A stretch of 64,000 bases of DNA, taken from NCBI GenBank assembly GCA_964519895.1, contig CAZFLE010000009.1, forward strand, positions 31,610 to 95,609, in the 5' to 3' direction. This document shows, piece after piece, positions 6,105 through 32,908 of this stretch (position 1 is its first letter; each line of letters begins with the position of its first letter). Position numbers and translations under genes: made by a program. The notes below the pieces were generated by a model. It was not told where the DNA came from. It saw nothing but the letters and a program-made list of their open reading frames with translations, and ran no database searches. The DNA is from an uncultured Enterobacterales bacterium. GTDB taxonomy: Bacteria > Myxococcota_A > UBA796 > CAJQPC01.

Positions 6105-6299
6105 GACCCGAGTGGACAGGAACTGTCCGATCGGTCCCGACACGGTCGCCAAGGCGGGGTGTGGTCCAGCACCCGGTCCCCCGTGACCCCGCCGCGCGGT
6201 GTCATAGTCTCTCGGCCCCGAGGCGGGGTCAGGCAAGCTCTGGCCCCGGACTCGTGCTCTCCTGCTCGCACACACCAGGAGCCCCAGATCTTCTCGCCC

Positions 6300-7001
6300 T
6301 TGCTGCTGCTGGCCGCCACGACGGGCTGCATCCATGTGTACCAGCCCATGGCGGGCTTCCACGGCCCCGTGGTCGTGGATCCCCAGGCCCGGAACTTCGG
6401 AGATCTGTCCCTGACCGTGGTCTGCGAGCGCGGAGACCTGCTCACCGCCGCCGAGGCCCGCACCCTGTGCCAGCACGTGGGCACGCTCTTCGAGCAACAG
6501 GGCGCCGTGGTGACCACCACCACTTCGGAGTCCGGTGCCGGAGAGTTCGAGTTCGAGGAGCCCGCTGTCCCCGGCGAAGAAGAAGCGCCACCGCCCGCCA
6601 CCGACCTGACCCTGGAGCTCACCTCCCGGGAGCTGCACAAGGCCAACGACCCGGTCTCCTGGGTGCTCTTCTTCATCAGCGCCACCGTGGTGCCCGCGGT
6701 GACGGAGACCTCGTTCGCCGTCGACGTCACCATCAAGGACGAGAGCGGCTTCGTGCTGGTGGCGGACTCGCTGCAGGGGCGCCTGGTGCGCCGCATGGGC
6801 GTCGGTGCCTGGGGCACGAATTTCCTGCTGGACAGCTTCCTGCGGGAAGACGCGGACCGCATCACCGGAGACGCGGCGCACCAGGATCTGTCCGACGACC
6901 TGTACGGTCAGCTCGGACAGCTGCTGTTCAACGCCAAGATGCAGTGGCAGGTCCTGTCCCAGGCTGCTGCCGCCCCGTCGCTGCCGGGGGCCCCGCCATG
7001 A
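6300..7001 (+). CDS. Lipoprotein of unknown function, gene 1 of the putative motor operon (start uncertain; open frame from 6159)
   Basis: TTG at 6300 gives MLLLAATTGC (lipobox-like), followed by an alpha/beta-looking domain. The stop overlaps the next ATG (ATGA 6998-7001). Confidence 0.7.
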   Translation: MLLLAATTGCIHVYQPMAGFHGPVVVDPQARNFGDLSLTVVCERGDLLTAAEARTLCQHVGTLFEQQGAVVTTTTSESGAGEFEFEEPAVPGEEEAPPPATDLTLELTSRELHKANDPVSWVLFFISATVVPAVTETSFAVDVTIKDESGFVLVADSLQGRLVRRMGVGAWGTNFLLDSFLREDADRITGDAAHQDLSDDLYGQLGQLLFNAKMQWQVLSQAAAAPSLPGAPP

Positions 7002-7639
7002 TCGAGGCGATCATCTTGTGGCTGGGCTTGTTGGTCTTCGTGTCCCCCAAGGACCCGGCGCCGGGGCTGCTCCACTCCAAGAATGAAGCGCGCAACCTGG
7101 AGTGCGAGCGGCTGAGCGTCGAAGAAGCGAGCCGAGCCCACCCCGGCGACGTCGCGCCCCCTGGTCCTCGGGGCGACTACTACGCCCGCAGCGCCCTCGT
7201 CTGCACGGAGCGCCTGGTTCGGCCCGGTCTACGGGACGCCCGGGACGAGGCCATCCTGTCGACCCTGGACGCTCGCTCCAGCGAGCTCGCGGCCGCCGCC
7301 GACGCCCTTCGCCCCGAGCTCCAGGGCGCCACGTGGCTGGTCGAGACCTACTACCCAGACCCCCAGGTCGCCGCGAAGATCGGCTTCGCCACCAAGAACG
7401 CCCTGGTGTTCCAGGGGCTGCGGGTGTCGGACCGGACCCCCCTGCTGGGGGCGGGCGACGTCCAGGTCATCACCCGCATGACACCAAGCGACGCCTATGC
7501 CGCGGCGTGCCGGCGCTATGCGGACAACGGCAGCTTGGGCCCGGACGATGTCTTGCTGGGCGTCGTGAGCCTGGACCCTCGCGAGACGGCCCTGCACGCC
7601 GGACTGTGCCAGCAGGGCACGTGGACGTGGCTCCGATGA
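6998..7639 (+). CDS. Exported or membrane-anchored hypothetical protein, operon gene 2
   Basis: MIEAIILWLGLLVFVSP hydrophobic N-terminus; ATGA overlaps at both ends; 213 aa. Confidence 0.75.
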   Translation: MIEAIILWLGLLVFVSPKDPAPGLLHSKNEARNLECERLSVEEASRAHPGDVAPPGPRGDYYARSALVCTERLVRPGLRDARDEAILSTLDARSSELAAAADALRPELQGATWLVETYYPDPQVAAKIGFATKNALVFQGLRVSDRTPLLGAGDVQVITRMTPSDAYAAACRRYADNGSLGPDDVLLGVVSLDPRETALHAGLCQQGTWTWLR

Positions 7640-8913
7640 ACGCCCTACGCCGCGTGTTCGCGATGGCCCTGGCGGTGGCGTTCGCGTCAGGCCCGGCCTT
7701 GGCGGCCGATCCCCTCGAGGCCGCCCAGCTCGCCGAGCTCGATCGGGTCCGGACCCAGGTCGCTGGTCAGGTCCAGCTGACCGCCTACGACCTGCTCGAC
7801 GAGCTGGTGCTCGGGTGGATCCAGGAGCCGGTCTTCACGACCCCGACCCCGGTGGTGCTGGCCGGCCTGACGGTCCCGGTCGGGCTGGGCACCGGGCTCC
7901 AGGCCTTGCTCGAGAACCACCTGGGCGGCCTGCTGACCCAGAACCCTGGCTGCAATGTGCAGCTCTCCCACTGCCCGAGCTGCACCGCCGTGGTCGTGCA
8001 CTCCGGCCCGGAAGGCACCGTGGTGTCCCGGGGCATCGACAGCCCCGCCCTGCTCCAGGAGCTCGGCAGCGGCGGTCGCAAGTACGCGCTCTTCGTGGAC
8101 GTCGAGGCCGAGGGCACGTGGTTGGTCCTGCGTGCCCGCATGACCGAGCTGAACCCGGACCTGCCCATCGTCTGGAGTCGGACCCTGTCCCACGCGTCCA
8201 GCGTGCCGGCGATGCTGCGCCAGCCCGACGACCTGAAGACCGTCGCCGAAGCCCGCCAGGACTACCTGGCCGCGCTGGAGTCTCGGGGTCCCCTCGCGGT
8301 GCCCGTGAGGATCGGGGTGCGGGCCTTTGCGGCACCGGACGGCAACACCCTCTTCGAGACCGACACCTTCGACACCTACGACACCACCGACACCGACACC
8401 GACACCGGCTTGGACACCGGCGGCATCGGCATCGCGCCGCCGCCCTTCTACTGGGTCCAGAGCGGCATCGAGCTGGGCATGAGCGACGCCCGGGCCTGGA
8501 TCTCCAGCTTCGTGCTCGGCTACAGCGTCATCCCCCAGGCCTACCAGGGGCTCATGGGCGAGGTCCGGTTCGCCCGGCTGCTGACGGGCAACTACCGCTC
8601 CCTCACCCGGCCGGACCTGTACGCCTTCGGGGGCGCCGCGGTCATGACGGTCTGGGGCCCGGCCACCGGCAGCTTCACCAACAACGCCCTGAACACCGAC
8701 GACATCCTGAATCAGCTCGAGGGCGACGACCCCCGGGCCGTCTTCGGTACCTTCCAAGCGGGTCTGGACCTGCGGGTCGGCAATCGGATGGGCATGTCGG
8801 CCTTCTTCGAGTTCCTGCCGTCGTTCCGAGACTCCGACAACTTCGGCGCCTACCTGAGCGTCTTCGGCCTGGGCATCCAGAGCTTCGGCACCGAGGTGAC
8901 GTTCTGGCTCTGA
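7636..8913 (+). CDS. Secreted protein with CxxC-containing alpha/beta domain and C-terminal beta-barrel-like region, operon gene 3
   Basis: Signal peptide MNALRRVFAMALAVAFASGPALA, HCPSC, a D/T-rich linker (FETDTFDTYDTTDTDTDTG) and amphipathic strands ending GTEVTFWL. Confidence 0.75.
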   Translation: MNALRRVFAMALAVAFASGPALAADPLEAAQLAELDRVRTQVAGQVQLTAYDLLDELVLGWIQEPVFTTPTPVVLAGLTVPVGLGTGLQALLENHLGGLLTQNPGCNVQLSHCPSCTAVVVHSGPEGTVVSRGIDSPALLQELGSGGRKYALFVDVEAEGTWLVLRARMTELNPDLPIVWSRTLSHASSVPAMLRQPDDLKTVAEARQDYLAALESRGPLAVPVRIGVRAFAAPDGNTLFETDTFDTYDTTDTDTDTGLDTGGIGIAPPPFYWVQSGIELGMSDARAWISSFVLGYSVIPQAYQGLMGEVRFARLLTGNYRSLTRPDLYAFGGAAVMTVWGPATGSFTNNALNTDDILNQLEGDDPRAVFGTFQAGLDLRVGNRMGMSAFFEFLPSFRDSDNFGAYLSVFGLGIQSFGTEVTFWL

Positions 8914-9869
8914 GGCTGTTCCTGGCGTGGCTCGGGGCCCTGGTCCTGGCGTCGGGGTCCGCGTGGGCCGGCACGGCCGAGAGTCGGGAGTCCCTGGATC
9001 GCCTCGAGGAGCTGCTGCAGCTCCGGATCGAGGACGGTCGCCTGGATCTGGACGACGTGACCCCAGCCGTCCTGGTCAGCGCCACGCCGCGCTACGTCAC
9101 GTCTCAGGACTGGTTCGGGGTGCAGGCCATCGATGTGCTGCAGTCCGTTTTGGGCCAGGGCCTGCGCCTGTGCGAGGCCTGCATGGTGCCCCGGGCCTTC
9201 GTCCAGCAGGGCCTGCTGACCTACCAGACGGGCGCGGTGTCGCTGGCCGACGTGGTGCGGCTGGACGAGGCCAGCCGTGGCGGCGCCACGCCAGCCCGCT
9301 CGGCCATCTGGATCGAGGAGACGTCGGTCGGTGTGGCCGTGCGCATCTTGGCGCTGGGCACCGGGCGCGTCTTGTTCGCCCAGAACATCGACCCCATGCT
9401 GGTCGAGGACGAGCAGACCCAGCGCAATTTCACCCTGAGCGAGGAGCTCGAGCGGCGGTCTCGCGGGCGGAGCATCACCCAGTCCTTCCTGGACGTCGCC
9501 GTCTACCCGGGCCAGCACATCTCGGTGGACATGACCGAGCAGTGGGGGGCGACCAACAAGAACCTGACCGGGGTGACCCTGTCCCTGGTCGACCCGGTCT
9601 TCGGCCTGGGCGCCGCGCACTATCGGGTCGTAGACCTGGTGAACGTCATCGTCGGGGCCAAGCTGGTGCTCAGCGTGCCCACGGCGCTGGTGCGGGCCTT
9701 CGACGACGACGCGGGCGACGTGCTCGATCCGATGGTCACAGCGGTGGGGGTGGTGCGCGTACCCTTTGGTCGCAGCAACTACGGCGTGGTCGCCACGGTC
9801 TCGACCAACGGCACGATCGGACTCGGACTCTCGCTGATGAACATCCGCTTCCTTCCGGTGATCCCATGA
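8910..9869 (+). CDS. Secreted protein resembling gene 3 (CxxC + CsgG/FlgO-like strand motif + beta-strand-rich C-terminus), operon gene 4; probable CTG start
   Basis: (M)RLFLAWLGALVLASGSAWA signal peptide, LCEAC, VAVRILALGTGRVLFAQ. The frame has no ATG/GTG/TTG between the end of gene 3 and the signal peptide. Confidence 0.7.
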   Translation: MRLFLAWLGALVLASGSAWAGTAESRESLDRLEELLQLRIEDGRLDLDDVTPAVLVSATPRYVTSQDWFGVQAIDVLQSVLGQGLRLCEACMVPRAFVQQGLLTYQTGAVSLADVVRLDEASRGGATPARSAIWIEETSVGVAVRILALGTGRVLFAQNIDPMLVEDEQTQRNFTLSEELERRSRGRSITQSFLDVAVYPGQHISVDMTEQWGATNKNLTGVTLSLVDPVFGLGAAHYRVVDLVNVIVGAKLVLSVPTALVRAFDDDAGDVLDPMVTAVGVVRVPFGRSNYGVVATVSTNGTIGLGLSLMNIRFLPVIP

Positions 9870-10513
9870 CCCTGCTTGCGGGTGCCGTGCTGCTGGGGCT
9901 CGCCCCGGGTTGCGCCATGCACAACTACACCCACTACCTGATCGAGCCGGCCCCGGCGACGAGCCCGGTGCTCGAAGAAGAGGAGGGCACCCAGCTGCGG
10001 CCCATGGGCTTCGGCTCGACCACGGCGATGCACGTGCGCTGGAACGATGGCGACGTCATCACCGAGGTCCAGATCCCGCTCTTGGCGAGTGGGCAGCGCA
10101 TCGTGATCGAGCATACAGCCGCGGCCACCGACGTGGAGACCATCCCGGCGACCCGACTGGTGCCGCCGCCGCCGAGCCTGGCCGACGACACCTTGGACGA
10201 GGCCTACCGACAGCGGGGCCTGCGGGTGAACCAGGGGGCGCCAGAAGTCAGCCTGTCCGCGGCCCGCACGCGCATGAACCAGGCCCTGGCCGACGGCAAC
10301 TACCAGCTGGCCCTGGAGTGGTGTGAGCTGGTGTTGGCCCGCTACCCCGCCCACCCCGAGACGCTCCGTGCCAAGGGCTCGGTGCTCTTGCTGCTGGGGG
10401 AACGGGAAAAGGCCATCGAGGTCTACGAGGCGGTCGAGGAGATCGAGTCTGATCCCGCAGTGCGCAAGAAGCTCGAGGAGCTCCAGGCGCAGCAGCCCGA
10501 GGTGACGGAGTGA
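9866..10513 (+). CDS. TPR-containing lipoprotein, operon gene 5
   Basis: MTLLAGAVLLGLAPGC lipobox; C-terminal TPR-like pair GNYQLALEWCELVLARYPAHPETLRAKGSVLLLLGEREKAIEVYE. Confidence 0.8.
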   Translation: MTLLAGAVLLGLAPGCAMHNYTHYLIEPAPATSPVLEEEEGTQLRPMGFGSTTAMHVRWNDGDVITEVQIPLLASGQRIVIEHTAAATDVETIPATRLVPPPPSLADDTLDEAYRQRGLRVNQGAPEVSLSAARTRMNQALADGNYQLALEWCELVLARYPAHPETLRAKGSVLLLLGEREKAIEVYEAVEEIESDPAVRKKLEELQAQQPEVTE

Positions 10514-10517
10514 ACCT

Positions 10518-11246
10518 GTGCAGCTAGTCGGTCTCACCCTGTTGGGCTACGTGATCTGGTTTGGCTTCTTCGGCGAACGCGAAGCCGGTGCCATCACGGC
10601 CTTCGACCTCCACGCCCTGGTGATGGTGCTGGGGGGCTCCGCGTCGGCCGTCCTGGTGATGTCCAAGACCCGGGACAGCCTGCGCACCCTGACCTGTCTG
10701 CGCGAGATCCTGCCCGGTCTGGGCACGCTGGACCGCGCGAATCAAGCCCTGGAGGCCGAGCGCGACGAGCTGGTCACCCTGTGGCTCGACGGCCGGCGAG
10801 CCCAGGCGGTCGAGCTCGCCGAGCGCAGCGCGTTCCCCGCTACCCGGGCAATGCTCGGGCTGGTCCTCCGCCGGGCGTCCCCCCAGGCCATCCAGGCCGC
10901 CTTCACCAAGCTGCGCCACGACGAGCTGAGCCGGTGGCAGCCAGCGGTCGGGAACTGGGAGCTGCTGGCCAAGCTCGCGCCGTCCTTTGGCATGGTCGGG
11001 ACCATCACCGGCATGATCCAGCTCTTCCGCAACATGGGCGAGGACACCGCGGCGTTGGGTCCTGCGCTGTCCCTGGCGCTCCTGGCCACCCTCTACGGGG
11101 TCGCCTTCGGCGCGGGCGTCGCCGGTCCGATCGGTCACTACCTCCGAGGCCTGCTCGACGAACGCCTGGGCGCCCTGGAGCGCTGCGAACAGAGCGTCTC
11201 CGAGCTGATCGCAGCCTCCGGCGACGCGCTGGCGGGCGGGATCTAG
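10518..11246 (+). CDS. motA: Flagellar-type stator A subunit (MotA/PomA-like)
   Basis: Four-TM layout with a cytoplasmic domain; LAPSFGMVGTITGMIQLF, LGPALSLALLATLYG and GVAGPIG; R94/E102 have the same 8-residue spacing as E. coli MotA R90/E98. Confidence 0.88.
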   Translation: MQLVGLTLLGYVIWFGFFGEREAGAITAFDLHALVMVLGGSASAVLVMSKTRDSLRTLTCLREILPGLGTLDRANQALEAERDELVTLWLDGRRAQAVELAERSAFPATRAMLGLVLRRASPQAIQAAFTKLRHDELSRWQPAVGNWELLAKLAPSFGMVGTITGMIQLFRNMGEDTAALGPALSLALLATLYGVAFGAGVAGPIGHYLRGLLDERLGALERCEQSVSELIAASGDALAGGI

Positions 11247-11249
11247 CCC

Positions 11250-11879
11250 ATGCAGAGACGCGTCTACACCAACGACGAGGGCTGGCTGCTCAGCTACGCA
11301 GACCTGATCACCAACCTGTTGGTCTTCTTCGCCATCATCGTCTCGGTGTCCGACGTCAGTCGCTCCCAGATGCAGAAGGTGGCGGAGCGGCTGTCTGGGG
11401 TCGAGCAGCCCCAGAGCCTGCGTTCGATCCAGAAGGAGATCGACGCCCGGATCGAGGCCGAGGGCCTCCAGGAACTCATCCGCACGGACCTGACCGACGA
11501 CGGACTCGAGGTCGCCCTGAATTCCGGGGTGGTGTTCGACTCCGGCAGCGCGGTGATCCGGGCCGAGCACAGCCCGCTGCTCACCAGCATGCTCGAGACC
11601 ATGGCGCCGTATAGCGGCCGGTACGACTTCGCCGTCGAGGGCCACACCGACAGCACGCCCATTGTGAACGGCAACGGCCACTACCCCACGAATTGGGAGC
11701 TCTCCACCGGGCGGGCCAACGCGGTGCGCGCCCGCCTGGAGGACGTCGGCGTGGAACAGGAAGGCATCCGGGTCGAGGGCTATGCCGACACGGTCGTGCT
11801 GCCCGAGGACGACCTGGAGGGTCTGACCGAGGAAGAGCGCCTGGCCCGCCACCGGCGTGTCGTCGTGAGGATCTACTGA
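11250..11879 (+). CDS. motB: Stator B subunit MotB with OmpA-like peptidoglycan-binding domain
   Basis: WLLSYADLITNLLVFF with the ion-binding Asp18, then a plug-like helix, VEGHTDSTPI, NWELSTGRANAV, GYADT and RRVVVRIY. Confidence 0.93.
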   Translation: MQRRVYTNDEGWLLSYADLITNLLVFFAIIVSVSDVSRSQMQKVAERLSGVEQPQSLRSIQKEIDARIEAEGLQELIRTDLTDDGLEVALNSGVVFDSGSAVIRAEHSPLLTSMLETMAPYSGRYDFAVEGHTDSTPIVNGNGHYPTNWELSTGRANAVRARLEDVGVEQEGIRVEGYADTVVLPEDDLEGLTEEERLARHRRVVVRIY

Positions 11880-13681
11880 TGTCCGGTCTGTGTCTCCTCG
11901 CGGCCCTGGTGCCCGGCGTCTTTGCCCAGTCGCCCACGGTGCCCACCCGGCAGATCCCGCCGTCGGTGCTGGTCGAGGTCCAGCTGCTCGAGAACCGCTT
12001 CGACCTGGCCCTGGCCCAGGACTGCGACGCGTCGCGCTGCTTCTCCAAGGGCTGCAGCTACCTGGACCACGCCGTCGCCGACCGGCCTCGGCAGACCTCG
12101 TTGCCGGGTCTCGCGCCGGAGTCCGGACCCAGCGCCGAAGGGGCCCAGGAGTACCTGACAAGCGCCCGGTGTGCCTTTGCCCACGAGCAGAGCCTGGCGA
12201 GCCGGGACGTGCAGAACCTGGTGCGCCGGCTCCAGGCCAAGCTGTCGTCGGGCTGGACCGTGGTCACCGTGACCAACGACGTCCTGCAGCCTCTGCCCCA
12301 GTACCTGAGCGAGCCGGCGGTGCCGGAGCCCCAGGAGCCCGAGGAGCAAGAAGAGGAGGTCGCCGCGCCCGAGCCCGAGCCCGAGGAACCGGCGGCCTGG
12401 TCCTGGGCCCAGGCAGGCCAGGAGCTGTGGGCCACGCTCTTGCCCCACTTCTTCTGGATGATCGGCCTGGGGCTCGTGACCCTGGCCTCTGCGATGTTGA
12501 TCTGGTCCTGGCGTCGGGTCGGCCGGGCGTCTCTCGAGGAACAGGCGCTGCTGGCCCAGATCACGGCTGGGCCTGGGGGCGGCGGGCCCGCAGCCACCCC
12601 CACGTCCGTCGAGCCCGACGAGGACGCCGCCTGGGTCGACGCCCAGCACGCCGCCTGGTCGGAGCGCCTGGCCGGCCTCGATCCGGAGCAACCAGACCCC
12701 CAGCTCCAGGCCCTGCTGCGGGAGCTCCTGAGAGCCGGCAGCCTGCCGCTGCTTGCCAAGGCCGTGCTGACCTACCCCGCCTTGCCGGATGCGTTCCCCA
12801 GCGGGGGCGACGTGGCCGGCCAGAAGCTGGCACTGGCGGACTTCCTGACCGGCGTCGACGACGGGGCCCTGCCCTCTGACGCCGCATTCTTCGAAGCCCT
12901 CAACCGGCACGCGCTCTCCGCGACACTGGCCAGCCAGAGCGACACCGGAGTCCTGCGCAGCCTGCGGGAAGACTTCGGCACCGCAGGCCTGGCGACCCTC
13001 ATCAGCGCCCTGCCGCCCCGGGACGGCGCCGTGCTCTTCGCCCTGGCGCCGGGGGCCAGCCAGCGGGAGCTGGTGGGCCTCTTGTCACCGGTCCAGGCCG
13101 CGGAGCGTGCCGGTCAGCTCTTGCTGTCGGAGCGCATGGACCGGCGCCAGACCGCGGCGCTCTTTGGCGTGCTCGAGGCCGCCCGCACCGGCGGCAAGCT
13201 GACCATGCCCCAGGGCGGCGCCCGCATCACGGACCGGGGCACGCCCTTCGACGCAGCGGGTGCGCTCTCCGTGCTCCTGGGCGCCGTCGAGCCCCACCAG
13301 CGGGCCGCCCTCTTCGAGGGGGTCCTGCAGCGCTTCCACGGCACCCTGCCGGCGTGGCACAGGGGCATTCTGGTGCCTGACATGTTGCTGGAGCTCCCGC
13401 AGGAGGCCCGCACGGACCTGTTCCTGGAGGTCGAAGCCGAAGAACTCGCGGCGTGGCTGGCCCTGGTGCCCAGTGAGTCTCGGGCACAGCTGGTGACCGG
13501 CCTGCCGGATGCCCTGCGGGCGACGCTGCAGGCCCTGTCCTCGTGGCCGTCGGCCGCTCGTAGGGACGCCCTGGCAGACCAGGGGCGACGCGCCCTGGCG
13601 CGCGGCTTTCAGCGCCAGCTGGCCCGGGCCAGTCTGCCGTTCGAGCGGGTGGTCACGGCCGGAAGCGGGACAGCGACGTGA
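11879..13681 (+). CDS. Putative single-chain rotor protein: signal peptide, FliF-RBM3-like periplasmic domain, Pro/Glu linker, one TM helix, FliG middle and C-terminal-like domains (600 aa)
   Basis: TGATG coupling to motB. TM LLPHFFWMIGLGLVTLASAMLIWSWRR. The C-terminal segment from DAAGALSVLLG through LFLEVEAEELAAWLALVPSESRAQLVTGLP to QGRRALARGF follows the FliG helix pattern by eye. Confidence 0.7.
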   Translation: MSGLCLLAALVPGVFAQSPTVPTRQIPPSVLVEVQLLENRFDLALAQDCDASRCFSKGCSYLDHAVADRPRQTSLPGLAPESGPSAEGAQEYLTSARCAFAHEQSLASRDVQNLVRRLQAKLSSGWTVVTVTNDVLQPLPQYLSEPAVPEPQEPEEQEEEVAAPEPEPEEPAAWSWAQAGQELWATLLPHFFWMIGLGLVTLASAMLIWSWRRVGRASLEEQALLAQITAGPGGGGPAATPTSVEPDEDAAWVDAQHAAWSERLAGLDPEQPDPQLQALLRELLRAGSLPLLAKAVLTYPALPDAFPSGGDVAGQKLALADFLTGVDDGALPSDAAFFEALNRHALSATLASQSDTGVLRSLREDFGTAGLATLISALPPRDGAVLFALAPGASQRELVGLLSPVQAAERAGQLLLSERMDRRQTAALFGVLEAARTGGKLTMPQGGARITDRGTPFDAAGALSVLLGAVEPHQRAALFEGVLQRFHGTLPAWHRGILVPDMLLELPQEARTDLFLEVEAEELAAWLALVPSESRAQLVTGLPDALRATLQALSSWPSAARRDALADQGRRALARGFQRQLARASLPFERVVTAGSGTAT

Positions 13682-15729
13682 TGCGGGCCGTCGCCGTCGC
13701 CGTCACCCTTCTGGGCGCTGGCCTGGCCGGGTGCTCCAAGGTCCCACTCTCCGACGTCGAAGCGGACTTCACGCTGGCCGACACGGCTTGGTTCCAGGCC
13801 GAGGAGACCCTGTTCGTGTTCTACCGGATCACGGCCGAGCAGGGCCTGGGCGACCCCAGCGTGGTCGAGATCACCTACACCACCGACGACGGGCGGGTCG
13901 ACTGGACGCCGCTGAGCGAGCTCACGCCGGTGCACACCCACGTCGACGTGGACTGCGGCACCCAGGGACTCTGCGGCAGCCACAGCGTGCACGTGCCCCT
14001 GGAGCCCAGGGACGTGGATCTGCGGCTGCGCTACCACCACGATGGTGAGCTCTCCCTGCGGGCTGACACCGTGCTCAACGTCATCTACCCGGGCCCGGCC
14101 CACCTCCAGCGCAGCTTGCTGGTCTACGGGGTCTTCGATGAGACCAACCGACGGGTCCAGTGGCGGGCGCGGCACCTGTTCCCCACGCTGCGGAACCAGG
14201 ACGCCGAAGACCTGGGCCTGCGGCGAGAGTTCTCGGTGGCCGACCAGCGCTACGGCGACCTGGACGAGCCTGTGGATCTGAACAACCCCTATGCCTACGG
14301 GGTGACCTGTCCCGGGGACTTCGTCGACGCGGGGGTGGACCCGGTCCTGACCCTCGATCGGGCGGTCTTCAACGCCCAGGAGCTCCCGACGGACGCGGCC
14401 GATGCCGCCGTGGTGTGTGGCCCCAGCACCGTCACCGATGCCCTCGGCAACTTCACCGCGGATGCCGTGGCCCGCAAGAATCCCGAGGTGCGCCCGGCGT
14501 TTCCCCTGCTCCGGACGCCGGTGCGGGACGCGACGCCCCTGCGATTCTTCCTGGCCCCTTGCGACCGCACCATCGACGACGACCACGAGGAACTCCAGCG
14601 CCAGCGCTTGCTGGTCGGCGACCTGGCTCCGATCTGCACCGACGACTGGGAGACCGCGGGATTTGTCGAGGCACTGGTGACGACCTTCTCCGACGCGGTC
14701 GAGGCCGAGCGGGTGCGGGGCCAGGACATGGTGTTGGTCATCGGGCTGCACCGAGACGACGACGGTCTGGCCGACGCGGTCCAAGAGGCCCTGGCCCTGG
14801 TCGTTCCCGAGGAGCGGCACCAGAGCTCACCGCGGCTCGCAGGAGCGTTCGTGTTCGACAGCGACATCCAGGGCCTGACCTTGCCCGAGCTCGAGCCGGT
14901 GACGCTGTGGTGCCCGGCGACCCAGGGGTCCGGTGCGTCGGCGCGGACCTGTGCCATCCAGCCCGACAACCCCGAGATCGAGCTGGGTCCGCTGACCTTC
15001 AGCACCCTGCCGGTCTTTCCCTCCCGGGCCGTGTACCTGGACTTCATCGACACCTACTCCAAGCGCCAGGCCGGCGACGTGCTGGCCCTGGACTTCCTGA
15101 CGCCGGAATTCGCGACCACAAGCGACCACATCGACCTGGGCGAGTTCGGCACCATCACCTTCCTCGACGACGAGTTCATCACCGCCACCGCCGACGAAGC
15201 GTTCTCCCACTGCGTCCAGGAGGAACCCCCGCCGGTGGTCTTCCGCTCCGAGATCCTGACCAGCGAGCAGTTCGCCAACATCCTGGAGGTCTGGTGCGCC
15301 AACGGGGTGGTGAGCGAAGACTTCTGCTCGCTGGCGACCCTGGGGGTGCTGACCCTGGACCAGCTGCCCGAGTGGCACGAGCTGGTGGGCGAGCCCCTCT
15401 ACGAGCTGGGGCTCTTCTGGGACTTCCCCTTCCTGCTGCGGGTGGAGTACGAGGCCTACACCGCAGGCGCGGTGAGCGCCTTCGAGCTCAGCGTGCCCTT
15501 TGGCGTCGCCGGCGACGGCGAGGCCTACTACGGCACCGCTGCCTGGCTCGCCGACGCGTTCTCTCTGGAGGACGAGCTGCTGCAGTGCACCCGCTTCTGC
15601 GACCACCCGACCTTTGGCTCGGCCAGCGTCTACAACGTCACCGACCCCTTCCGGCTGACGTACCTGAACACCTGCTATGCGCCGGTCTACCCCAGGGTTG
15701 GGGACTCGGGCTTCCCCCTTGATCCCTAG
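13678..15729 (+). CDS. Large acidic, Cys-rich lipoprotein of unknown function, operon gene 9
   Basis: Lipobox LAGC, 14 further Cys, beta-rich; GTGA overlap with the upstream stop. Confidence 0.8.
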   Translation: MMRAVAVAVTLLGAGLAGCSKVPLSDVEADFTLADTAWFQAEETLFVFYRITAEQGLGDPSVVEITYTTDDGRVDWTPLSELTPVHTHVDVDCGTQGLCGSHSVHVPLEPRDVDLRLRYHHDGELSLRADTVLNVIYPGPAHLQRSLLVYGVFDETNRRVQWRARHLFPTLRNQDAEDLGLRREFSVADQRYGDLDEPVDLNNPYAYGVTCPGDFVDAGVDPVLTLDRAVFNAQELPTDAADAAVVCGPSTVTDALGNFTADAVARKNPEVRPAFPLLRTPVRDATPLRFFLAPCDRTIDDDHEELQRQRLLVGDLAPICTDDWETAGFVEALVTTFSDAVEAERVRGQDMVLVIGLHRDDDGLADAVQEALALVVPEERHQSSPRLAGAFVFDSDIQGLTLPELEPVTLWCPATQGSGASARTCAIQPDNPEIELGPLTFSTLPVFPSRAVYLDFIDTYSKRQAGDVLALDFLTPEFATTSDHIDLGEFGTITFLDDEFITATADEAFSHCVQEEPPPVVFRSEILTSEQFANILEVWCANGVVSEDFCSLATLGVLTLDQLPEWHELVGEPLYELGLFWDFPFLLRVEYEAYTAGAVSAFELSVPFGVAGDGEAYYGTAAWLADAFSLEDELLQCTRFCDHPTFGSASVYNVTDPFRLTYLNTCYAPVYPRVGDSGFPLDP

Positions 15730-16552
15730 CCTGCTCCTGGGTCTCTGGGGTGGTCCTGTGCTCGCCGCAGAGGACCCGGATGCGTCCGACGACGGGTCTG
15801 AGTCGTCGTCCGAAGACGACGAGGCCCCCGCCGAGCCTGAGCTCGACGACGAGCTCTCCAGACACCGGGTGGCCTTTCCCGTGCTCGCCGAGCAGGCCAT
15901 CGGGGCAGCGTCGAAGTCGGTGGAGTTCAACTGGCGGCACGCGACGGCGATGGTGGCCGCGACGGGCAGCCACTACTTCGAGCTGAACAACTTCGACAGC
16001 CTGCGGGCTGGCGGCGTGGCCAGGGTGCCCTACGACAAGTTCATCCTGGAGCTCGGCGGAGCCTGGGTCTGGGTCTGGGACACGCCCAGCAGTCGCCAGC
16101 TGGCGCTGACCCCCTACCGCCAGCCTGGCCGCCCGGCGCGGATCGAGCTGGACCTGACGGTGGGCTTCCCCGTCGCCGAAGGCGTGGTGACGACCTTTCC
16201 GCGACTGTTCCCGGCGGTCGAGCTGGTCTTCAGCCCCTACGCCGGGCTGCGCTACGTGCTCTACCCGACGGCCTTCCAGGGCATGAAGGCCCGGGAGATC
16301 GCCGGCGCTGTGGTCAGCCCGACCCTGACCGACGACGAGCTGGAGAACCTGGAGGAGGTCCGGCTGGACGCCATGGAGGTCGATCCCGCGCGGTACGGCA
16401 TCCTGGTCGGCTTCGGCAACGAGATCTACTTCAAGCAGGGGGTGTTCGTGATGCCGCGGGTGATGTTCGCCGTGCCGGTCTTCGCACCGGTCACCGAGAG
16501 CGATCTGCGGTTCTGGGCGGACCTGTCCCTGACGATCGGGGTGGCGTTCTGA
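15719..16552 (+). CDS. Predicted outer-membrane beta-barrel protein, operon gene 10
   Basis: TTG start gives the signal peptide MIPSLLLGLWGGPVLA, then an acidic N-terminal segment, alternating amphipathic strands and C-terminal DLSLTIGVAF (terminal Phe OMP signature). Confidence 0.75.
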   Translation: MIPSLLLGLWGGPVLAAEDPDASDDGSESSSEDDEAPAEPELDDELSRHRVAFPVLAEQAIGAASKSVEFNWRHATAMVAATGSHYFELNNFDSLRAGGVARVPYDKFILELGGAWVWVWDTPSSRQLALTPYRQPGRPARIELDLTVGFPVAEGVVTTFPRLFPAVELVFSPYAGLRYVLYPTAFQGMKAREIAGAVVSPTLTDDELENLEEVRLDAMEVDPARYGILVGFGNEIYFKQGVFVMPRVMFAVPVFAPVTESDLRFWADLSLTIGVAF

Positions 16553-18459
16553 TGCTCTGGGTGGTCCTGCTCGCGCTCGCAGCCGGGGAGCCAGCGCCGG
16601 GGCCGAGCACCCACACGCTGCTGTACTACAACGCCCGCATGGCCCTGCGGGAGGGCAACCCCAGCGAGGCGGTCCGGCTGTGGTTCACGCGCAACACGCT
16701 GCGGGACCGCACCGGGCGCGTCTCGGCCCATGACGCCGACTTTCACTCCGTGACCTGGACAGCCCTTGGAGACCTGGGCGTGTGCCAGGACGGCCACCCC
16801 CGGGACAAGGACGGTGCCGGCCTGTGGCCCCTCGCGCTCCACAACCAGATCGTCCGCAACATGGGGCGGCGCCGACGGGCTCCAGCGGCACAACCCTTCT
16901 CGGCCTTCGAGGTGGACCGCCAGCACCGCCTGGTCTCGATCAACGAGGTGCTCAGCTACGACGAGCTGCGCACGGTGCGGCTGTTCCGCGGCCCCTGTCT
17001 GGAGCCGCGCTTCGCGCTGGCCCGCGCCGGAGAGCTGCCGACGGCGGACCTGTCAGACCGCCAGGTCGTCGCTCGCTTGTTGCGGCACCTGCTCGACGAG
17101 GCCCGAGGCAGCCTGGCCCAGCCGCGGGTGCGAGGACGGGCCGCCATCGACGCGCGGCTCTTCGACCTGGACTTGCAGCTCACCGCTCTGGCCGCACGGG
17201 AGGCCCGCAAGCAGGCTCTGGACCAGGCGGGGCAGGGCCGGCAGCTCGGGCTGTCCCGCGCGTCGGTGACCGTCATGCGTGAAGAGGCGCCGGGCACCAC
17301 GCTGGACCCCGACTCAGAAGCGGCCCGCATCCTGCGGGAGGCGGTGGCCTGGCCGGTCTGGGAGTGGATGGCCCTGTCGTCGGAGCGTCGTCTCTTCCTG
17401 TTCGACCACGTGCGGGCCAACGGCGCCGACCCGGCTGCGCTCGATGCGCTGGCCCTGGGCATCCTGGACCGACTGATCCATCAGGGCCTGGGAACGGAGG
17501 TGGGCCCATGGATCGCTCGGGTGGGGAACCCGGACGACCCGGGGGCGCGGGCCCAGGTCTGGCGCGGCCCGCGGGGCCAGGCGCTGATGGCCTTGGGGGC
17601 CGAGAGCGGCTTCGAGGAAGGCGCGGTCATCGCCCTGGCCAGAGGCGTGCATCACCTGGAGCGGGGGGAGCTGCCCGAAGCCCTCCGGTCGTTGGCGTTC
17701 GCGGTCCAGGGTGCCGGCACATCCCAGGTGGCCAACACCGTCGAGGGCCTGAGCCTGCGTTGGCTGTCCTTTGTCGCAGGTCGATTCGAGATCACCGACG
17801 ATCTGCTGTTGACCCTGCAGCAGCTCGTGCCGGTGAGGGACTACGCCGTCATCCTGGAAGACCTGATGTGGCGGGCGGCGCTGCGGGCCGACCAGGCATC
17901 CTTCGAGCGCGGCCTGGCCAACCAGCGTGGCCGCGGCGCCCTGGCCCGGCGCCTGGCGTGGCTACGGCCCCTGGCCGCGGGCGATCTTGGGCGGTTCTCC
18001 CAGGACATCGCCGACGGGCTCGACGAAGCCCCCAGCGAGACCCTGCGCTTCCTCGATCAGCTCGTCCAACGGCTGGAGCTGGAGCCGGGCGCTGTGCGAG
18101 CGGCCCATGCTGGGACCCTGGATCGGCTGGACACGTTGCTGCTGCCCCTGGCGGTGGCCCTGGAGGGTGGGCGCTTGGCCCGCGCCGCCACCGCCCTGCT
18201 GGAGCGTTCTCAGGCTCTGAGAGAAGGCCTGGGCGGTCTGACAGACGACGCGACAGCCCGAGAGCGGGCCCGGGCGCTGGACCCTTCCCGCGAGGTCTTC
18301 GTGGGCAGCGTGCGGCTGGCCCCGGCCGACCCTCTGCCATGGCCCTTCCGCCGGCTCGACGTGCCGGCGCCCTCGGTGTTCACGCCGCTCCAGCTGACAC
18401 CGGTGGAGTGGCGGGACGACGGCGGTGAGCTGGTCTTCGGGTGGAGCATCGGCGGGTGA
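16552..18459 (+). CDS. Secreted all-alpha (TPR-like) protein, operon gene 11
   Basis: Signal-like MLWVVLLALAAG, helical repeats such as YNARMALREGNPSEAVRLW and LARGVHHLERGELPEALRSL; TGATG coupling. Confidence 0.75.
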   Translation: MLWVVLLALAAGEPAPGPSTHTLLYYNARMALREGNPSEAVRLWFTRNTLRDRTGRVSAHDADFHSVTWTALGDLGVCQDGHPRDKDGAGLWPLALHNQIVRNMGRRRRAPAAQPFSAFEVDRQHRLVSINEVLSYDELRTVRLFRGPCLEPRFALARAGELPTADLSDRQVVARLLRHLLDEARGSLAQPRVRGRAAIDARLFDLDLQLTALAAREARKQALDQAGQGRQLGLSRASVTVMREEAPGTTLDPDSEAARILREAVAWPVWEWMALSSERRLFLFDHVRANGADPAALDALALGILDRLIHQGLGTEVGPWIARVGNPDDPGARAQVWRGPRGQALMALGAESGFEEGAVIALARGVHHLERGELPEALRSLAFAVQGAGTSQVANTVEGLSLRWLSFVAGRFEITDDLLLTLQQLVPVRDYAVILEDLMWRAALRADQASFERGLANQRGRGALARRLAWLRPLAAGDLGRFSQDIADGLDEAPSETLRFLDQLVQRLELEPGAVRAAHAGTLDRLDTLLLPLAVALEGGRLARAATALLERSQALREGLGGLTDDATARERARALDPSREVFVGSVRLAPADPLPWPFRRLDVPAPSVFTPLQLTPVEWRDDGGELVFGWSIGG

Positions 18460-21569: not shown

Positions 21570-21761
21570 TCAGGCACCGGGGAGAGGGACGGGGTCAACG
21601 ATGGGAACAGGAGGCCCCAGTTTCCTGCAAGATCCGTGCCTGTCTATGCGGCCGTGCCCCACCCGCGAATGCCCATGGCCAGGGCCTTCGCGTGCCCTGT
21701 GGGGCTTCGGTGTCGCAGTGAGCCACAGGCAATTCCTTCCCCTGGGGTACGGGCACCCCAG

Positions 21762-23759: not shown

Positions 23760-23794
23760 GGAGACCTCGTGCTCCTCGCTTCGCTAACCGCCGC

Positions 23795-30546: not shown

Positions 30547-30556
30547 GGAGCGGTCT

Positions 30557-31636: not shown

Positions 31637-31645
31637 GTCGCGGCT

Positions 31646-32899: not shown

Positions 32900-32908
32900 G
32901 CCGCTCGC

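What the first reader, a model, noticed from the sequence alone, without database searches (positions are those of the whole stretch)
11879..13681. Single polypeptide resembling FliF ring domain + TM + FliG(M,C): a minimal fused rotor
Seen, by-eye alignment: the periplasmic part (LLENRFDLAL...YLTSARCAF...DVQNLVRRLQAKLSSGWTVVTV, about 11980-12280) has the helix/strand order of a split ring-building motif like FliF RBM3, with four Cys. It is followed by a Pro/Glu linker and one TM (about 12437-12511). LATLISALPPRDGAVLFALAP...ERMD (about 12950-13170) resembles the FliG middle ARM. DAAGALSVLLGAVEPHQRAALFEGV...ILVPDMLLELPQEARTDLFLEVEAEELAAWL (from about 13250) tracks the FliG pattern GGxxxAAxILN...MFxFEDLxxLDDRxIQxxLREV. 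Known: FliF and FliG bind tightly and engineered fusions work. Inference: a natural MS-ring/C-ring fusion encoded directly after its stator.
Basis: inference. Interest (0 to 1): 0.9.

Follow-up and report, generated by a model that had tools for sequence, protein, structure and literature searches.

The report
Membrane-anchored FliG homologue beside MotAB stator
A non-flagellated group of bacteria (Myxococcota) encodes, right after a flagellar-type MotA/MotB ion motor, one membrane protein whose inner part is a full-length relative of the flagellar rotor protein FliG and whose outer part has a ring-building-type fold, which suggests an undescribed MotAB-driven machine that is not a flagellum.

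Summary
Window 11879-13681 (+) encodes a 600-aa protein with five parts: a signal peptide, a periplasmic alpha-beta-beta-alpha-beta domain with four invariant Cys, an acidic/Pro linker, one TM helix, and a 355-aa helical cytoplasmic part.

- **FliG homology.** The cytoplasmic part is homologous to whole FliG (N, M and C). hhalign gave 97.8% probability and P=9e-13 over 299 columns, against controls of P>=0.15. The 12 best Foldseek PDB hits are all FliG. Pfam FliG_C hits 18 of 25 divergent family members.
- **Periplasmic domain.** It resembles FliF RBM3/collar, PrgK and EscJ only at the level of predicted fold. Those matches are weak and tie with OsmC and MamM. Sequence homology to FliF was not shown.
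- **Stator linkage.** The start codon overlaps the motB stop (TGATG). MotA keeps the counterparts of P173, P222, R90 and E98. MotB keeps its plug, Asp32 and the OmpA domain.
- **Cluster.** All this sits in a 12-gene cluster that is colinear in 81 of 81 loci, including cultured Archangium and Hyalangium. A deeply divergent branch with motAB inverted also keeps it.
- **Against a classical rotor.** The FliG torque-helix charges and the EHPQR motif are not conserved. There is no FliM/N, rod or export gate.

Ring formation and rotation are untested. A chlamydial FliF-FliG fusion is a partial precedent. Verdict: real, novel and high interest.

The parts
10518..11246 (+). MotA-like stator A subunit (242 aa). 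It has four TM segments and a cytoplasmic loop of about 100 aa between TM2 and TM3.
   Evidence: Pfam MotA_ExbB hit, E=1.6e-17. The best NCBIfam hits are flagellar motor proteins and PomA (5e-14), all far below the equivalog cut-offs; TolQ scores 2e-3 and ExbB 0.05. Residues equivalent to E. coli P173 and P222 are conserved. R94 is K/R in 100% and E102 acidic in 92% of 74 orthologues, spaced 8 residues apart like R90/E98.
11250..11879 (+). MotB-like stator B subunit (209 aa): TM helix with the channel Asp, plug, and an OmpA-like peptidoglycan-binding domain.
   Evidence: Pfam MotB_plug E=2.8e-11 and OmpA E=3.4e-11, both above their cut-offs. The best NCBIfam hits are MotD, MotB and MotS. D18, the equivalent of E. 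coli D32, is invariant in 77 orthologues.
11879..13681 (+). The finding (g8): a 600-aa bitopic protein made of signal peptide, periplasmic RBM-like domain, TM helix and a cytoplasmic FliG homologue.
   Evidence: The start codon overlaps the motB stop as TGATG. The stop overlaps the start of g9 as TGATG.
11879..11926 (+). N-terminal signal peptide (residues 1-16, MSGLCLLAALVPGVFA, then QS).
   Evidence: The sequence shows a hydrophobic N-terminus followed by an A-x-A-like site. The equivalent segment is variable but hydrophobic in all homologues. Cleavage was not tested.
11960..12283 (+). Periplasmic alpha-beta-beta-alpha-beta domain (residues 28-135) with a long beta1-beta2 hairpin and four invariant Cys (C49, C54, C59, C98).
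   Evidence: AF2 elements are H28-48, E54-68, E89-102, H108-122 and E127-135, with pLDDT above 90. Foldseek matches FliF MS ring 7bk0_B (prob 0.99), FliF RBM3/collar 6sd1_A, PrgK 2y9j_Y and EscJ 1yj7_D. OsmC and MamM CTD match at the same E-values of 0.2-0.7.
12098..12112 (+). Conserved SLPGL motif (residues 74-78) at the tip of the long hairpin, inside the low-confidence loop 70-85.
   Evidence: P76 and G77 are invariant; S74 and L78 are at least 90% conserved. The motif is kept as SSLPGL in the subfamily that is 17-25% identical. pLDDT is below 50 in the monomer model. That it is an interaction or oligomerisation site is inference.
12284..12403 (+). Acidic, Pro-rich periplasmic linker (residues 136-175).
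   Evidence: Shown directly by the sequence. It is low-confidence in AF2 and variable in length among homologues.
12425..12508 (+). Single transmembrane helix (residues 183-210), followed by WRRVGR on the cytoplasmic side.
   Evidence: Hydropathy core at 185-203. AF2 helix spans 176-214. L183, W184, L188, P189, W193 and M194 are invariant.
12695..12943 (+). FliG_N-like region (residues 273-355).
   Evidence: hhalign aligns target 273-591 to E. coli FliG 19-326. This is the least certain part of that alignment. Residues 251-289 also align weakly (P=0.015) to the FliG-binding C-terminal tail of FliF, residues 519-552.
12953..13189 (+). FliG_M-like domain (residues 359-437).
   Evidence: At the default hhalign setting, target 359-589 aligns to FliG 106-324. 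Foldseek matches the FliG MC structures 3ajc, 4fhr_B and 1lkv. EHPQ aligns to LPPR, so the FliM-binding motif is not kept.
13232..13651 (+). FliG_C-like domain (residues 452-591): Gly-Gly-linker equivalent, ARM_C, MFxF-equivalent (ILVPDML) and a C-terminal helix bundle.
   Evidence: hhalign of residues 440-600 alone against FliG 184-326 gives 95.6% probability and P=1.2e-8. Pfam MgtE_N matches residues 501-553 at 26.6 bits against a cut-off of 25.9. Pfam FliG_C hits 18 of 25 divergent family members, best E=2.3e-10. The torque-helix charges are not conserved.
6285..10510 (+). Five upstream cluster genes. g1 (6285-6998) is lipoprotein-like. g2 (6998-7636) has an N-terminal hydrophobic segment. 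g3 (7636-8910) has a signal peptide and ends in an aromatic residue. g4 (8901-9866) has a signal peptide. g5 (9866-10510) is lipoprotein-like with C-terminal TPR.
   Evidence: Each is present in at least 98% of loci with room, always colinear and on the same strand. The only Pfam hit is TPR in g5. The signal, lipobox and OMP readings come from the sequence alone.
13681..19106 (+). Four downstream cluster genes. g9 (13681-15729) is a lipoprotein with an LAGC lipobox. g10 (15677-16552) has a signal peptide and ends in ...IGVAF. g11 spans 16552-18459. g12 (18441-19106) has a cytoplasmic N-terminus, a TM helix, a Pro-rich linker and a C-terminal domain.
   Evidence: Each is present in 100% of loci with room. 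None has a Pfam or NCBIfam family. The g9 AF2 model has pLDDT 82.7, and Foldseek finds only generic tandem Ig/MG/FN3 beta-sandwiches. ruvX at 19146 is not conserved with the cluster, which marks its boundary.

Best explanation
g8 is the force-receiving partner of the co-encoded MotAB stator in a non-flagellar, envelope-spanning machine of Myxococcota.

**Shown.**
- Its cytoplasmic 320 residues are a full-length homologue of the flagellar rotor protein FliG.
- That part is tied through one TM helix to a periplasmic alpha-beta-beta-alpha-beta domain.
- The gene overlaps motB and g9 at TGATG stop/start junctions, which suggests translational coupling with both.
- MotAB and g8 travel together with nine other mostly exported proteins in a 12-gene cluster conserved across deep divergence.
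- The stator keeps the ion-path residues (MotB Asp, MotA prolines), the plug, the peptidoglycan anchor and an R...E pair at the position of MotA R90/E98.

**Inferred.**
- Ion flow turns the MotA pentamer, as in flagellar stators.
- MotA's cytoplasmic domain engages the FliG_C-like domain of g8.
- g8 oligomerises through its RBM-like periplasmic domain and through FliG-type ARM stacking into a ring. That ring would be an MS-ring/C-ring in one polypeptide, and it would be driven round.
- The periplasmic ring, with its conserved hairpin tip SLPGL, passes the motion to the periplasmic and outer-membrane partners (g1-g5, g9-g12).

The cellular output is unknown. Surface motility, surface-polymer handling or envelope remodelling are candidates.
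For: **FliG homology.**
- hhalign gives 97.8% probability and P=9.3e-13 over 299 columns, pairing target 273-591 with FliG 19-326.
- Specificity controls score P=0.3 (reversed FliG alignment) and P>=0.15 (ten other cluster families).
- The 12 best Foldseek PDB hits are all FliG. Full-length FliG chains align over 313-349 columns.
- Pfam FliG_C hits 18 of 25 divergent members, best E=2.3e-10.
- Genuine FliGs also carry MgtE_N hits, so the MgtE_N hit does not argue against FliG.

**Architecture.** The AF2 model has mean pLDDT 83.4. There is a single TM helix.

**Periplasmic fold.** It matches FliF, PrgK and EscJ ring proteins.

**Stator features.**

**Linkage.**
- The junctions are TGATG overlaps.
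- MotB is adjacent in 79 of 79 loci and MotA in 75 of 75 loci with room. Order is colinear in 81 of 81 loci.
- A branch about 25% identical, with GC of 51-62%, keeps the whole cluster although motAB is inverted.

**Precedent.** Engineered FliF-FliG fusions assemble rings and rotate.
Against: - The FliG residues known to contact MotA are not kept: K264 aligns to A, R281 to A, D288 to A, D289 to L and R297 to P.
- The torque-helix equivalent (residues 544-552) has no charge conserved across the family. If MotA engages g8, the interface differs from the flagellar one.
- FliF homology of the periplasmic domain is unproven. It scores P=0.43 alone, has no Pfam FliF/YscJ hit, and OsmC and MamM folds match equally well.
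- The cluster has no FliM/FliN, rod, hook or type III export gate, so what a ring would turn is unknown.
- A family HMM does not reach FliG. It finds only 170 hits among 1.84 billion proteins.
- All structural statements come from a monomer prediction. No oligomer or complex was modelled.
Confidence: 0.6

Rival explanations
1. Non-rotary transducer or adaptor. The FliG-like domain docks on the MotA pentamer, but g8 acts singly or in small numbers, as TonB and TolA do with ExbBD and TolQR. MotA rotation would then pull or displace g8, or wind its linker, and so energise an outer-membrane process. Alternatively g8 only recruits and unplugs the stator. There would be no large rotating ring.
For: - The torque-helix charges are absent.
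- No rod or C-ring partners are encoded.
- Ring-building similarity is weak.
- The cluster also encodes g12, a bitopic protein with a Pro-rich linker and a TonB/TolA-like layout.
- The other known non-flagellar 5:2 motors work through such periplasm-spanning partners (reviewed in PMC9389320, listed).
Against: - All three FliG domains are kept. These include the M and C ARM elements that mediate FliG-FliG ring stacking in flagella.
- The stator is of the flagellar type, with plug, OmpA anchor and a 4-TM MotA, rather than the TolQR/ExbBD type.
- The periplasmic domain has the topology of ring-forming RBMs.
Confidence: 0.27
2. An MgtE-type regulatory domain. The cytoplasmic part would be a Mg2+- or ligand-sensing MgtE_N-like helical domain that regulates a periplasmic function. 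Its adjacency to MotAB would be unrelated to torque.
For: For the window protein itself, the only Pfam hit above threshold is MgtE_N, at 26.6 bits against a cut-off of 25.9. MgtE_N hits 51 of 57 close members.
Against: - The MgtE_N hit covers only residues 501-553, whereas FliG aligns over 299 columns.
- Genuine FliGs also score on MgtE_N.
- No MgtE structure appears among the 50 Foldseek hits listed.
- No CBS or MgtE membrane domain was found by Pfam.
- Linkage to MotAB survives rearrangement.
Confidence: 0.05
3. A decaying remnant of an ancestral flagellar gene set with no present function, or a chance resemblance of helical repeats.
For: Myxobacteria have no flagella (established knowledge). 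The FliG functional motifs (EHPQR and the torque-helix charges) are lost.
Against: - The ORFs are intact and colinear in 81 of 81 loci, with many invariant residues across 57 to 80 or more species.
- The cluster persists in a branch about 25% identical.
- The stator's catalytic residues are invariant.
- hhalign P=9e-13 with clean controls excludes chance.
Confidence: 0.04

Closest known systems
Flagellar rotor pair FliF (MS ring) and FliG (top of the C ring), together with the MotAB stator
   Same: - The cytoplasmic part aligns colinearly with all of FliG (N, M, C), including the Gly-Gly-linker and MFxF-motif positions.
- The predicted fold matches FliG crystal and cryo-EM structures best.
- The periplasmic domain has RBM topology with a long hairpin, like FliF RBM3 with its beta-collar.
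- The order RBM, then TM, then FliG mirrors FliF(RBM3-TM2-tail) bound to FliG.
- The adjacent stator keeps the flagellar hallmarks.
   Different: - It is one polypeptide, not two.
- It has one RBM-like domain instead of three, and a cleavable signal peptide instead of TM1.
- The torque-helix charges and the EHPQR motif are lost.
- No FliM/N, export gate, rod, hook or filament genes are present.
- The hosts are non-flagellated Myxococcota.
- The sequences are too distant for HMM-to-sequence detection.
Chlamydiaceae FliF-FliG fusion protein (Bergeron 2016, PeerJ, PMC4768692)
   Same: It is a natural single polypeptide in a non-flagellated lineage that joins FliF-type periplasmic RBM domain(s), a TM helix and a cytoplasmic FliG-related domain.
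   Different: - The chlamydial protein is about 330 aa, with two TM helices and RBM2 plus one RBM-like domain. Only a FliG_M-like region is fused.
- No stator is reported for that organism in that paper, which lists only FliF, FliL and FlhA as flagellar genes. Its proposed partner is the injectisome.
- Here the whole of FliG is present and the gene overlaps a MotAB stator (TGATG junction) inside a 12-gene cluster.
Engineered FliF-FliG fusions of Salmonella and Vibrio
   Same: The domain order is the same. These fusions show that a covalent MS-ring/FliG protein can assemble rings and support rotation.
   Different: They are laboratory constructs of full-length FliF plus FliG, working inside complete flagella.
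Non-flagellar 5:2 ion-driven motors with their partners: ExbBD-TonB, TolQR-TolA, AglRQS-Glt of Myxococcus, GldLM of Bacteroidota, and ZorAB
   Same: In each, a MotAB-family motor energises an envelope-spanning, non-flagellar process through a dedicated partner. Here too the cluster is rich in lipoproteins, TPR and probable outer-membrane proteins.
   Different: - Those stators lack the MotB plug and the flagellar-type MotA cytoplasmic domain. Puente-Lelievre et al. 2025 (PMC12505986) use those features to define a flagellar-only clade.
- None of these systems uses a FliG homologue as partner.
MgtE N-terminal domain (Pfam PF03448)
   Same: Residues 501-553 pass the Pfam MgtE_N threshold. By my own knowledge of Pfam, not checked here, MgtE_N belongs to the same superfamily as the FliG domains.
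   Different: There is no CBS pair and no MgtE membrane domain. The similarity covers about 50 residues, against 299 for FliG.

Membership tests
FliG (flagellar motor switch/rotor protein) | FliG_C domain recognisable by sequence profile (Pfam PF01706) | tested here: met
   The window protein itself scores only on the related MgtE_N model. FliG_C reaches E=0.047 at best among close members, hitting 4 of 57. FliG_C hits 18 of 25 divergent members of the same family, best E=2.3e-10. hhalign of residues 440-600 against FliG 184-326 gives 95.6% probability, P=1.2e-8.
FliG (flagellar motor switch/rotor protein) | Three-domain N-M-C architecture, colinear | tested here: met
   hhalign covers 299 columns, pairing target 273-591 with E. 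coli FliG 19-326 at P=9.3e-13. Foldseek aligns 313-349 columns to the full-length FliG chains 8umx_B, 3hjl and 9n49_G.
FliG (flagellar motor switch/rotor protein) | Charged torque-helix residues that contact MotA (E. coli K264, R281, D288, D289, R297) | tested here: not met
   They align to A, A, A, L and P. No position in 544-552 is conserved in charge across 67 family members.
FliG (flagellar motor switch/rotor protein) | EHPQR motif of FliG_M, which binds FliM | tested here: not met
   EHPQ aligns to LPPR, so only the Pro is shared. No FliM/FliN-like protein was found in the cluster by Pfam.
FliG (flagellar motor switch/rotor protein) | Soluble protein encoded in a flagellar operon and bound non-covalently to the FliF C-terminal tail | tested here: not met
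   The protein is membrane-anchored behind a TM helix. The neighbours are MotAB plus nine uncharacterised envelope proteins, and none of the 12 cluster genes matches a flagellar structural family.
FliG (flagellar motor switch/rotor protein) | Physical torque-generating contact with MotA | not testable with these tools
   Only genetic linkage is shown. No complex prediction or experiment was possible.
FliF / SctJ ring-building-motif (RBM) proteins | Sequence-profile membership (Pfam YscJ_FliF PF01514, YscJ_FliF_C PF08345) | tested here: not met
   Neither family appears among the hits for the 57 close or 25 divergent members. hhalign of the periplasmic domain against a 6-sequence FliF alignment gives P=0.43.
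FliF / SctJ ring-building-motif (RBM) proteins | alpha-beta-beta-alpha-beta RBM fold | tested here: inconclusive
   The predicted topology is exactly alpha-beta-beta-alpha-beta with high confidence. Foldseek finds FliF (7bk0_B, 6sd1_A, 6scn, 8z4g), PrgK and EscJ. OsmC and MamM/CzrB domains match at the same weak E-values of 0.2-0.7.
FliF / SctJ ring-building-motif (RBM) proteins | RBM3 split by a beta-hairpin insertion that forms the beta-collar | tested here: inconclusive
   The beta1 and beta2 strands are unusually long (15 and 14 residues) and joined by a 20-residue loop with an invariant SLPGL tip. This is much shorter than the FliF collar insert.
FliF / SctJ ring-building-motif (RBM) proteins | Colinear TM2 and cytoplasmic FliG-binding tail | tested here: inconclusive
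   The full-length family against FliF gives 60% probability, P=8.5e-5, pairing target 25-289 with FliF 263-552. Residues 251-289 against the FliF tail 519-552 give P=0.015. Ten control families score P>=0.043. The signal comes mainly from the TM helix and the tail.
FliF / SctJ ring-building-motif (RBM) proteins | Assembly into a large homo-oligomeric ring | not testable with these tools
   Only monomer prediction is available.
MgtE Mg2+ transporter | MgtE_N domain followed by a CBS pair and the MgtE membrane domain | tested here: not met
   MgtE_N matches residues 501-553 just above threshold. No CBS or MgtE transmembrane domain is found in any of the 82 members scanned.
Flagellar-type MotAB stator (for the two upstream genes) | 4-TM MotA with P173/P222 and R90/E98 equivalents; MotB with channel Asp, plug and OmpA-like domain | tested here: met
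   The R/E assignment depends on a one-residue shift in a low-identity (19%) loop alignment.
Flagellar-type MotAB stator (for the two upstream genes) | Orthology to a named flagellar stator (NCBIfam equivalog cut-offs) | tested here: not met
   MotA scores 52 bits against cut-offs of 237-394. MotB scores 116 bits against 283.

The most novel reading that the evidence does not exclude
The 12-gene cluster encodes a previously unrecognised rotary nanomachine of non-flagellated Myxococcota. A ring of one polypeptide would combine the roles of the flagellar MS ring and FliG. A flagellar-type MotAB stator would spin it, and it would drive periplasmic and outer-membrane parts that have no known relatives. 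That would be the first use of the FliG-MotA torque module outside a flagellum. The machine could be either an offshoot of the flagellar motor or a relative of its pre-flagellar ancestor.
Probability: 0.4. Interest if true: 0.95.

Novelty: new variant of a known kind. Interest (0 to 1): 0.85.

Why it matters
FliG and a plug-bearing, peptidoglycan-anchored MotAB are treated as flagellum-specific. The latest stator survey defines such stators as a flagellar-only clade (PMC12505986). Finding the two together, tightly linked and conserved in a lineage without flagella, has three consequences.

1. **Function.** It points to a mechanically driven envelope function in myxobacteria that nobody has described.
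2. **A simpler model system.** It offers a much simpler rotor-stator pair, with one rotor polypeptide and no switch complex, for studying how 5:2 motors hand torque to a partner.
3. **Origin of the flagellar motor.** It gives a concrete test case for how FliG (MgtE-like) and MotAB (ExbBD-like) first came to work together.

The cluster is present in culturable Archangium and Hyalangium strains, so genetics and cryo-ET should be feasible.

Tried and rejected
**Searches that found nothing useful.**
- Sequence searches of the PDB, with the single protein and with the family profile, found nothing relevant.
- hhalign of the first, low-diversity alignment (Neff 2.6) against single E. coli FliG or FliF sequences found nothing. 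The signal appeared only after adding 66 divergent representatives and a 14-species FliG alignment.
- The homologue search seeded with E. coli FliG returned only near-identical enterobacterial FliGs. Diverse FliG and FliF sequences had to be collected from large 'plasmid' records instead.
- The family HMM run against 1.84 billion representatives stays inside the family (170 hits). It gives no bridge to FliG or MgtE.
- A metagenome scan with one divergent protein found nothing. A 25-sequence alignment had no stretch usable for a pattern. An 11-sequence alignment worked.

**FliF homology.** The periplasmic domain alone gives no signal. I rejected calling the protein a FliF homologue on present evidence.

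**Neighbours.**
- Pfam and NCBIfam give nothing for nine of the twelve cluster proteins, apart from TPR in g5.
- The AF2 model of g9 gives only generic Ig/MG-like hits.
- None of the ten other cluster families resembles FliG or FliF.

**Literature.** Searches for a described FliG-like partner of MotAB in myxobacteria found none.

**Readings considered and rejected.** MgtE-type sensor, relic and chance; see the rival explanations.

Full report
**1. What is there.**

The window is about 70% G+C. Coding frames stand out by GC3 above 0.82. The finding is an ORF from ATG 11879 to the stop at 13679-13681, giving 600 aa.

Its ATG overlaps the stop of the upstream gene as TGATG. Its own stop overlaps the start of the next gene in the same way.

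The two upstream genes are a stator pair.
- **MotA/ExbB-family protein (10518-11246).** Pfam E=1.6e-17. It shows four hydrophobic segments by eye; the automatic hydropathy scan picked up three.
- **MotB-type protein (11250-11879).** It has a MotB_plug hit (E=2.8e-11) and an OmpA-like domain (E=3.4e-11).
- **Closest curated families.** In NCBIfam both resemble flagellar stator families most (PomA, MotP, MotD, MotB, MotS), far more than TolQ or ExbB. Both fall far below the equivalog cut-offs.

**2. The protein family.**

A search of 5.8 billion proteins found 298 relatives. All are about 600 aa, all are unnamed or 'hypothetical', and they come from Myxococcota metagenome-assembled genomes.

A 57-sequence alignment shows four invariant cysteines (C49, C54, C59, C98). 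It also shows an invariant PG within SLPGL and a highly conserved TM segment.

An exhaustive HMM search of 1.84 billion cluster representatives found only 170 hits at E<=0.001. The family is small and isolated, and its HMM does not reach FliG or MgtE. That search did supply members only 17-25% identical to the target with the same length and the same four cysteines.

**3. Structure prediction.**

AlphaFold2 on the alignment gave mean pLDDT 83.4. The predicted parts are:
- a signal peptide;
- helix 28-48, strand 54-68, a low-confidence loop 70-85, strand 89-102, helix 108-122 and strand 127-135, which is an alpha-beta-beta-alpha-beta domain with an unusually long first hairpin;
- a disordered acidic/Pro linker;
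- a helix at 176-214 containing the only internal hydrophobic segment, 185-203;
- an all-helical region from 246 to 593.

The signal peptide, together with WRRVGR after the TM helix, places the small domain in the periplasm and the helical part in the cytoplasm. That topology is inferred from the sequence.

**4. The cytoplasmic part is a FliG homologue.**

- **Foldseek.** Against the PDB, the twelve best matches are all FliG. The best is the MC domain 3ajc (E=3.6e-4, probability 1.0). Full-length FliG chains from crystal and cryo-EM structures align over 313-349 columns. No MgtE entry appears among the 50 hits listed.
- **Pfam on the window protein.** The only hit above threshold is MgtE_N at residues 501-553 (26.6 bits against a cut-off of 25.9). 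That is not evidence against FliG, because genuine FliG proteins carry the same MgtE_N hit alongside FliG_N/M/C.
- **Pfam on close members.** Among the 57 close members, MgtE_N hits 51. FliG_C and FliG_M hit only 4 each, weakly.
- **Pfam on divergent members.** Among 25 divergent members, FliG_C hits 18, best E=2.3e-10.
- **Profile-profile comparison.** I compared the cytoplasmic region of a 67-sequence family alignment (Neff 7.1) with a FliG alignment. That alignment held 14 sequences from about a dozen taxa of Gamma-, Beta- and Alphaproteobacteria, Bacillota and Actinomycetota. The result was 97.8% probability, P=9.3e-13 and 299 aligned columns, pairing target 273-591 with E. coli FliG 19-326.
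- **Controls.** A column-reversed FliG alignment gives P=0.3. The ten other protein families of the same cluster, which have the same composition, give P>=0.15.

The homology is therefore with the whole of FliG, not with a generic ARM or MgtE_N repeat.

**5. What is not FliG-like.**

- The five charged residues of the E. coli FliG torque helix region align to A, A, A, L and P.
- Across the whole family, only R343, R419, R475, D/E501 and D/E513 are conserved in charge. None lies in the torque-helix equivalent, residues 544-552.
- The EHPQ motif that binds FliM aligns to LPPR.

On the stator side the hallmarks are kept.
- MotB D18, the equivalent of D32, is invariant.
- MotA keeps the equivalents of P173 and P222.
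- MotA has a fully conserved basic residue (R94) and a 92% conserved acidic residue (E102), eight residues apart in the same part of the TM2-TM3 loop as R90 and E98. This assignment depends on a one-residue shift in a 19%-identity alignment.

If MotA engages this protein, the contact surface must differ in detail from the flagellar one.

**6. The periplasmic part.**

- **Fold.** Its predicted topology is that of a ring-building motif. Foldseek finds the FliF MS ring (7bk0_B, probability 0.99), the FliF RBM3/collar (6sd1_A), Vibrio S-ring entries, PrgK and EscJ. All of these have E=0.2-0.7, and OsmC and MamM/CzrB domains score the same.
- **Sequence, domain alone.** Against a six-species FliF alignment, the periplasmic domain alone gives no signal (P=0.43).
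- **Sequence, longer constructs.** Adding the TM helix gives P=0.007. The full-length family gives 60% probability and P=8.5e-5 for a colinear match of target 25-289 to FliF 263-552.
- **Where the signal lies.** Most of it comes from the TM helix and from residues 251-289 against the FliG-binding tail of FliF (P=0.015). Control families give P>=0.043.
- **Pfam.** No FliF/YscJ model is hit.

I therefore regard 'RBM-like fold' as supported and 'FliF homologue' as unproven. The invariant SLPGL tip of the long hairpin is disordered in the monomer model. It is a good candidate for an inter-subunit or partner contact; this is inference.

**7. Genomic context.**

A scan of one genome per species found 133 loci, of which 80 were kept. 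They include cultured Archangium minus, A. lansingense, A. violaceum and Hyalangium versicolor.

tblastn of twelve window proteins against 81 loci shows that every one is present in at least 98% of loci with enough flanking DNA. They are always colinear and on the same strand. The next gene, ruvX, is never conserved with them. MotB is adjacent in 79 of 79 loci and MotA in 75 of 75.

In a deeply divergent branch from metagenomes (g8 about 25% identical, GC 51-62%) the whole cluster is again present, but motA-motB lie inverted upstream. Linkage that survives rearrangement argues for a functional unit.

The other nine proteins have signal peptides, lipoboxes, a TPR region, C-terminal aromatic residues typical of outer-membrane proteins, or a TM-plus-Pro-rich layout. 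None has a Pfam or NCBIfam family, and none resembles FliG or FliF.

The lipoprotein whose start overlaps the g8 stop (g9) is predicted with pLDDT 82.7. It matches only generic tandem Ig/MG/FN3 sandwiches.

No FliM/N, rod, hook or type III export component was found among the 12 cluster genes or the ten other window ORFs scanned.

**8. Interpretation.**

*Shown.*
- A full-length FliG homologue is tethered by one TM helix to a small periplasmic alpha/beta domain.
- Its reading frame overlaps motB and g9 at TGATG junctions, which suggests translational coupling to the stator.
- It is embedded in a conserved envelope gene cluster in bacteria that, by established knowledge, have no flagella.

*Inferred.*
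- MotA acts on the FliG_C-like domain.
- The protein oligomerises into a ring.
- The ring turns and transmits work to periplasmic and outer-membrane partners.

I give the rotor reading about 0.4 on its own. I give about 0.6 to the broader statement that g8 is the force-receiving partner of this MotAB.

The main rival, at about 0.27, is a TonB/TolA-like non-rotary transducer or stator adaptor. MgtE-like sensing, relic status and chance are each unlikely, for the reasons given under the rival explanations.

**9. Comparison with the literature.**

- Engineered FliF-FliG fusions work in Salmonella and Vibrio.
- A natural FliF-FliG fusion was reported in Chlamydiaceae. It is short, fuses only a FliG_M-like region, and has no stator reported; its discoverer linked it to the injectisome (PMC4768692).
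- The most recent stator survey treats plug-bearing MotAB with a torque-generating interface as a flagellar-only clade. It lists Agl, Exb and Tol as the non-flagellar relatives (PMC12505986).
- Searches for a FliG-like MotAB partner in myxobacteria found nothing.

The finding is therefore a new variant of a known module in a new context. If the ring rotates, it would be a new kind of machine.

**10. Limits.**

- All structure statements rest on monomer predictions.
- No complex could be modelled.
- The taxonomic labels of many metagenome-assembled genomes are unreliable.
- The absence of flagellar genes from whole genomes was not checked here.
- The biological output of the cluster is unknown.

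Noticed in passing
window 6285-19106: A 12-gene, same-strand cluster with many overlapping stop/start junctions. It is conserved and colinear in 81 of 81 related loci. Nine of its proteins have no Pfam or NCBIfam family. They look like lipoproteins, periplasmic proteins and outer-membrane proteins.
   Followed up: partly
window 13681-15729 (g9): A lipoprotein (LAGC lipobox) whose start overlaps the stop of the finding. The AF2 model is confident (pLDDT 82.7), but Foldseek gives only generic tandem Ig/macroglobulin/FN3-like beta-sandwich matches. It has many invariant Cys, Trp and Pro residues.
   Followed up: yes
window 18441-19106 (g12): A small bitopic protein: an Arg-rich cytoplasmic N-terminus, one strong TM helix, a Pro-rich linker and a C-terminal domain of about 110 aa. 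The layout recalls TonB and TolA. No Pfam support was found (the best hit is DotU at E=0.029).
   Followed up: partly
L102-L107 (metagenome contigs); L105 1-15600: A lower-GC (51-62%) divergent branch carries the whole cluster with motA-motB inverted upstream. It also has apparently extra ORFs not matched to any window gene, two upstream and one of about 0.8 kb between g8 and g9. Its lineage was not identified.
   Followed up: partly
window 30509-40959: A polysaccharide synthesis/export locus: a GT4 glycosyltransferase, a DUF362 plus 4Fe-4S protein, a MurJ-type flippase, a Bac_transf priming transferase and a Wzc-like chain-length/tyrosine-kinase protein. Whether it is linked to the cluster elsewhere was not tested.
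   Followed up: no
window 19623-27821: This stretch encodes a secreted CarboxypepD_reg-domain protein (19623-21566, minus strand), two large ORFs with no family (21762-25981, minus strand) and a sulfatase (25914-27821).
   Followed up: no
loci L002-L081 (record titles): Many high-GC contigs carrying this myxobacterial cluster are titled 'uncultured Enterobacterales', 'Klebsiella pneumoniae', 'Bifidobacterium breve', 'Alphaproteobacteria' or 'Rhodobacterales'. These look like wrong or placeholder taxonomy in the public records.
   Followed up: no
window 12629-12745 (residues 251-289 of g8): The juxtamembrane cytoplasmic helices align weakly (P=0.015) with the FliG-binding C-terminal tail of FliF (E. 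coli 519-552). This hints that the fusion keeps a FliF-tail/FliG_N unit within one chain.
   Followed up: partly
proteins P0121-P0240: Bona fide enterobacterial FliG proteins carry a precomputed Pfam MgtE_N hit alongside FliG_N/M/C. A lone MgtE_N annotation can therefore hide a FliG-type domain.
   Followed up: yes
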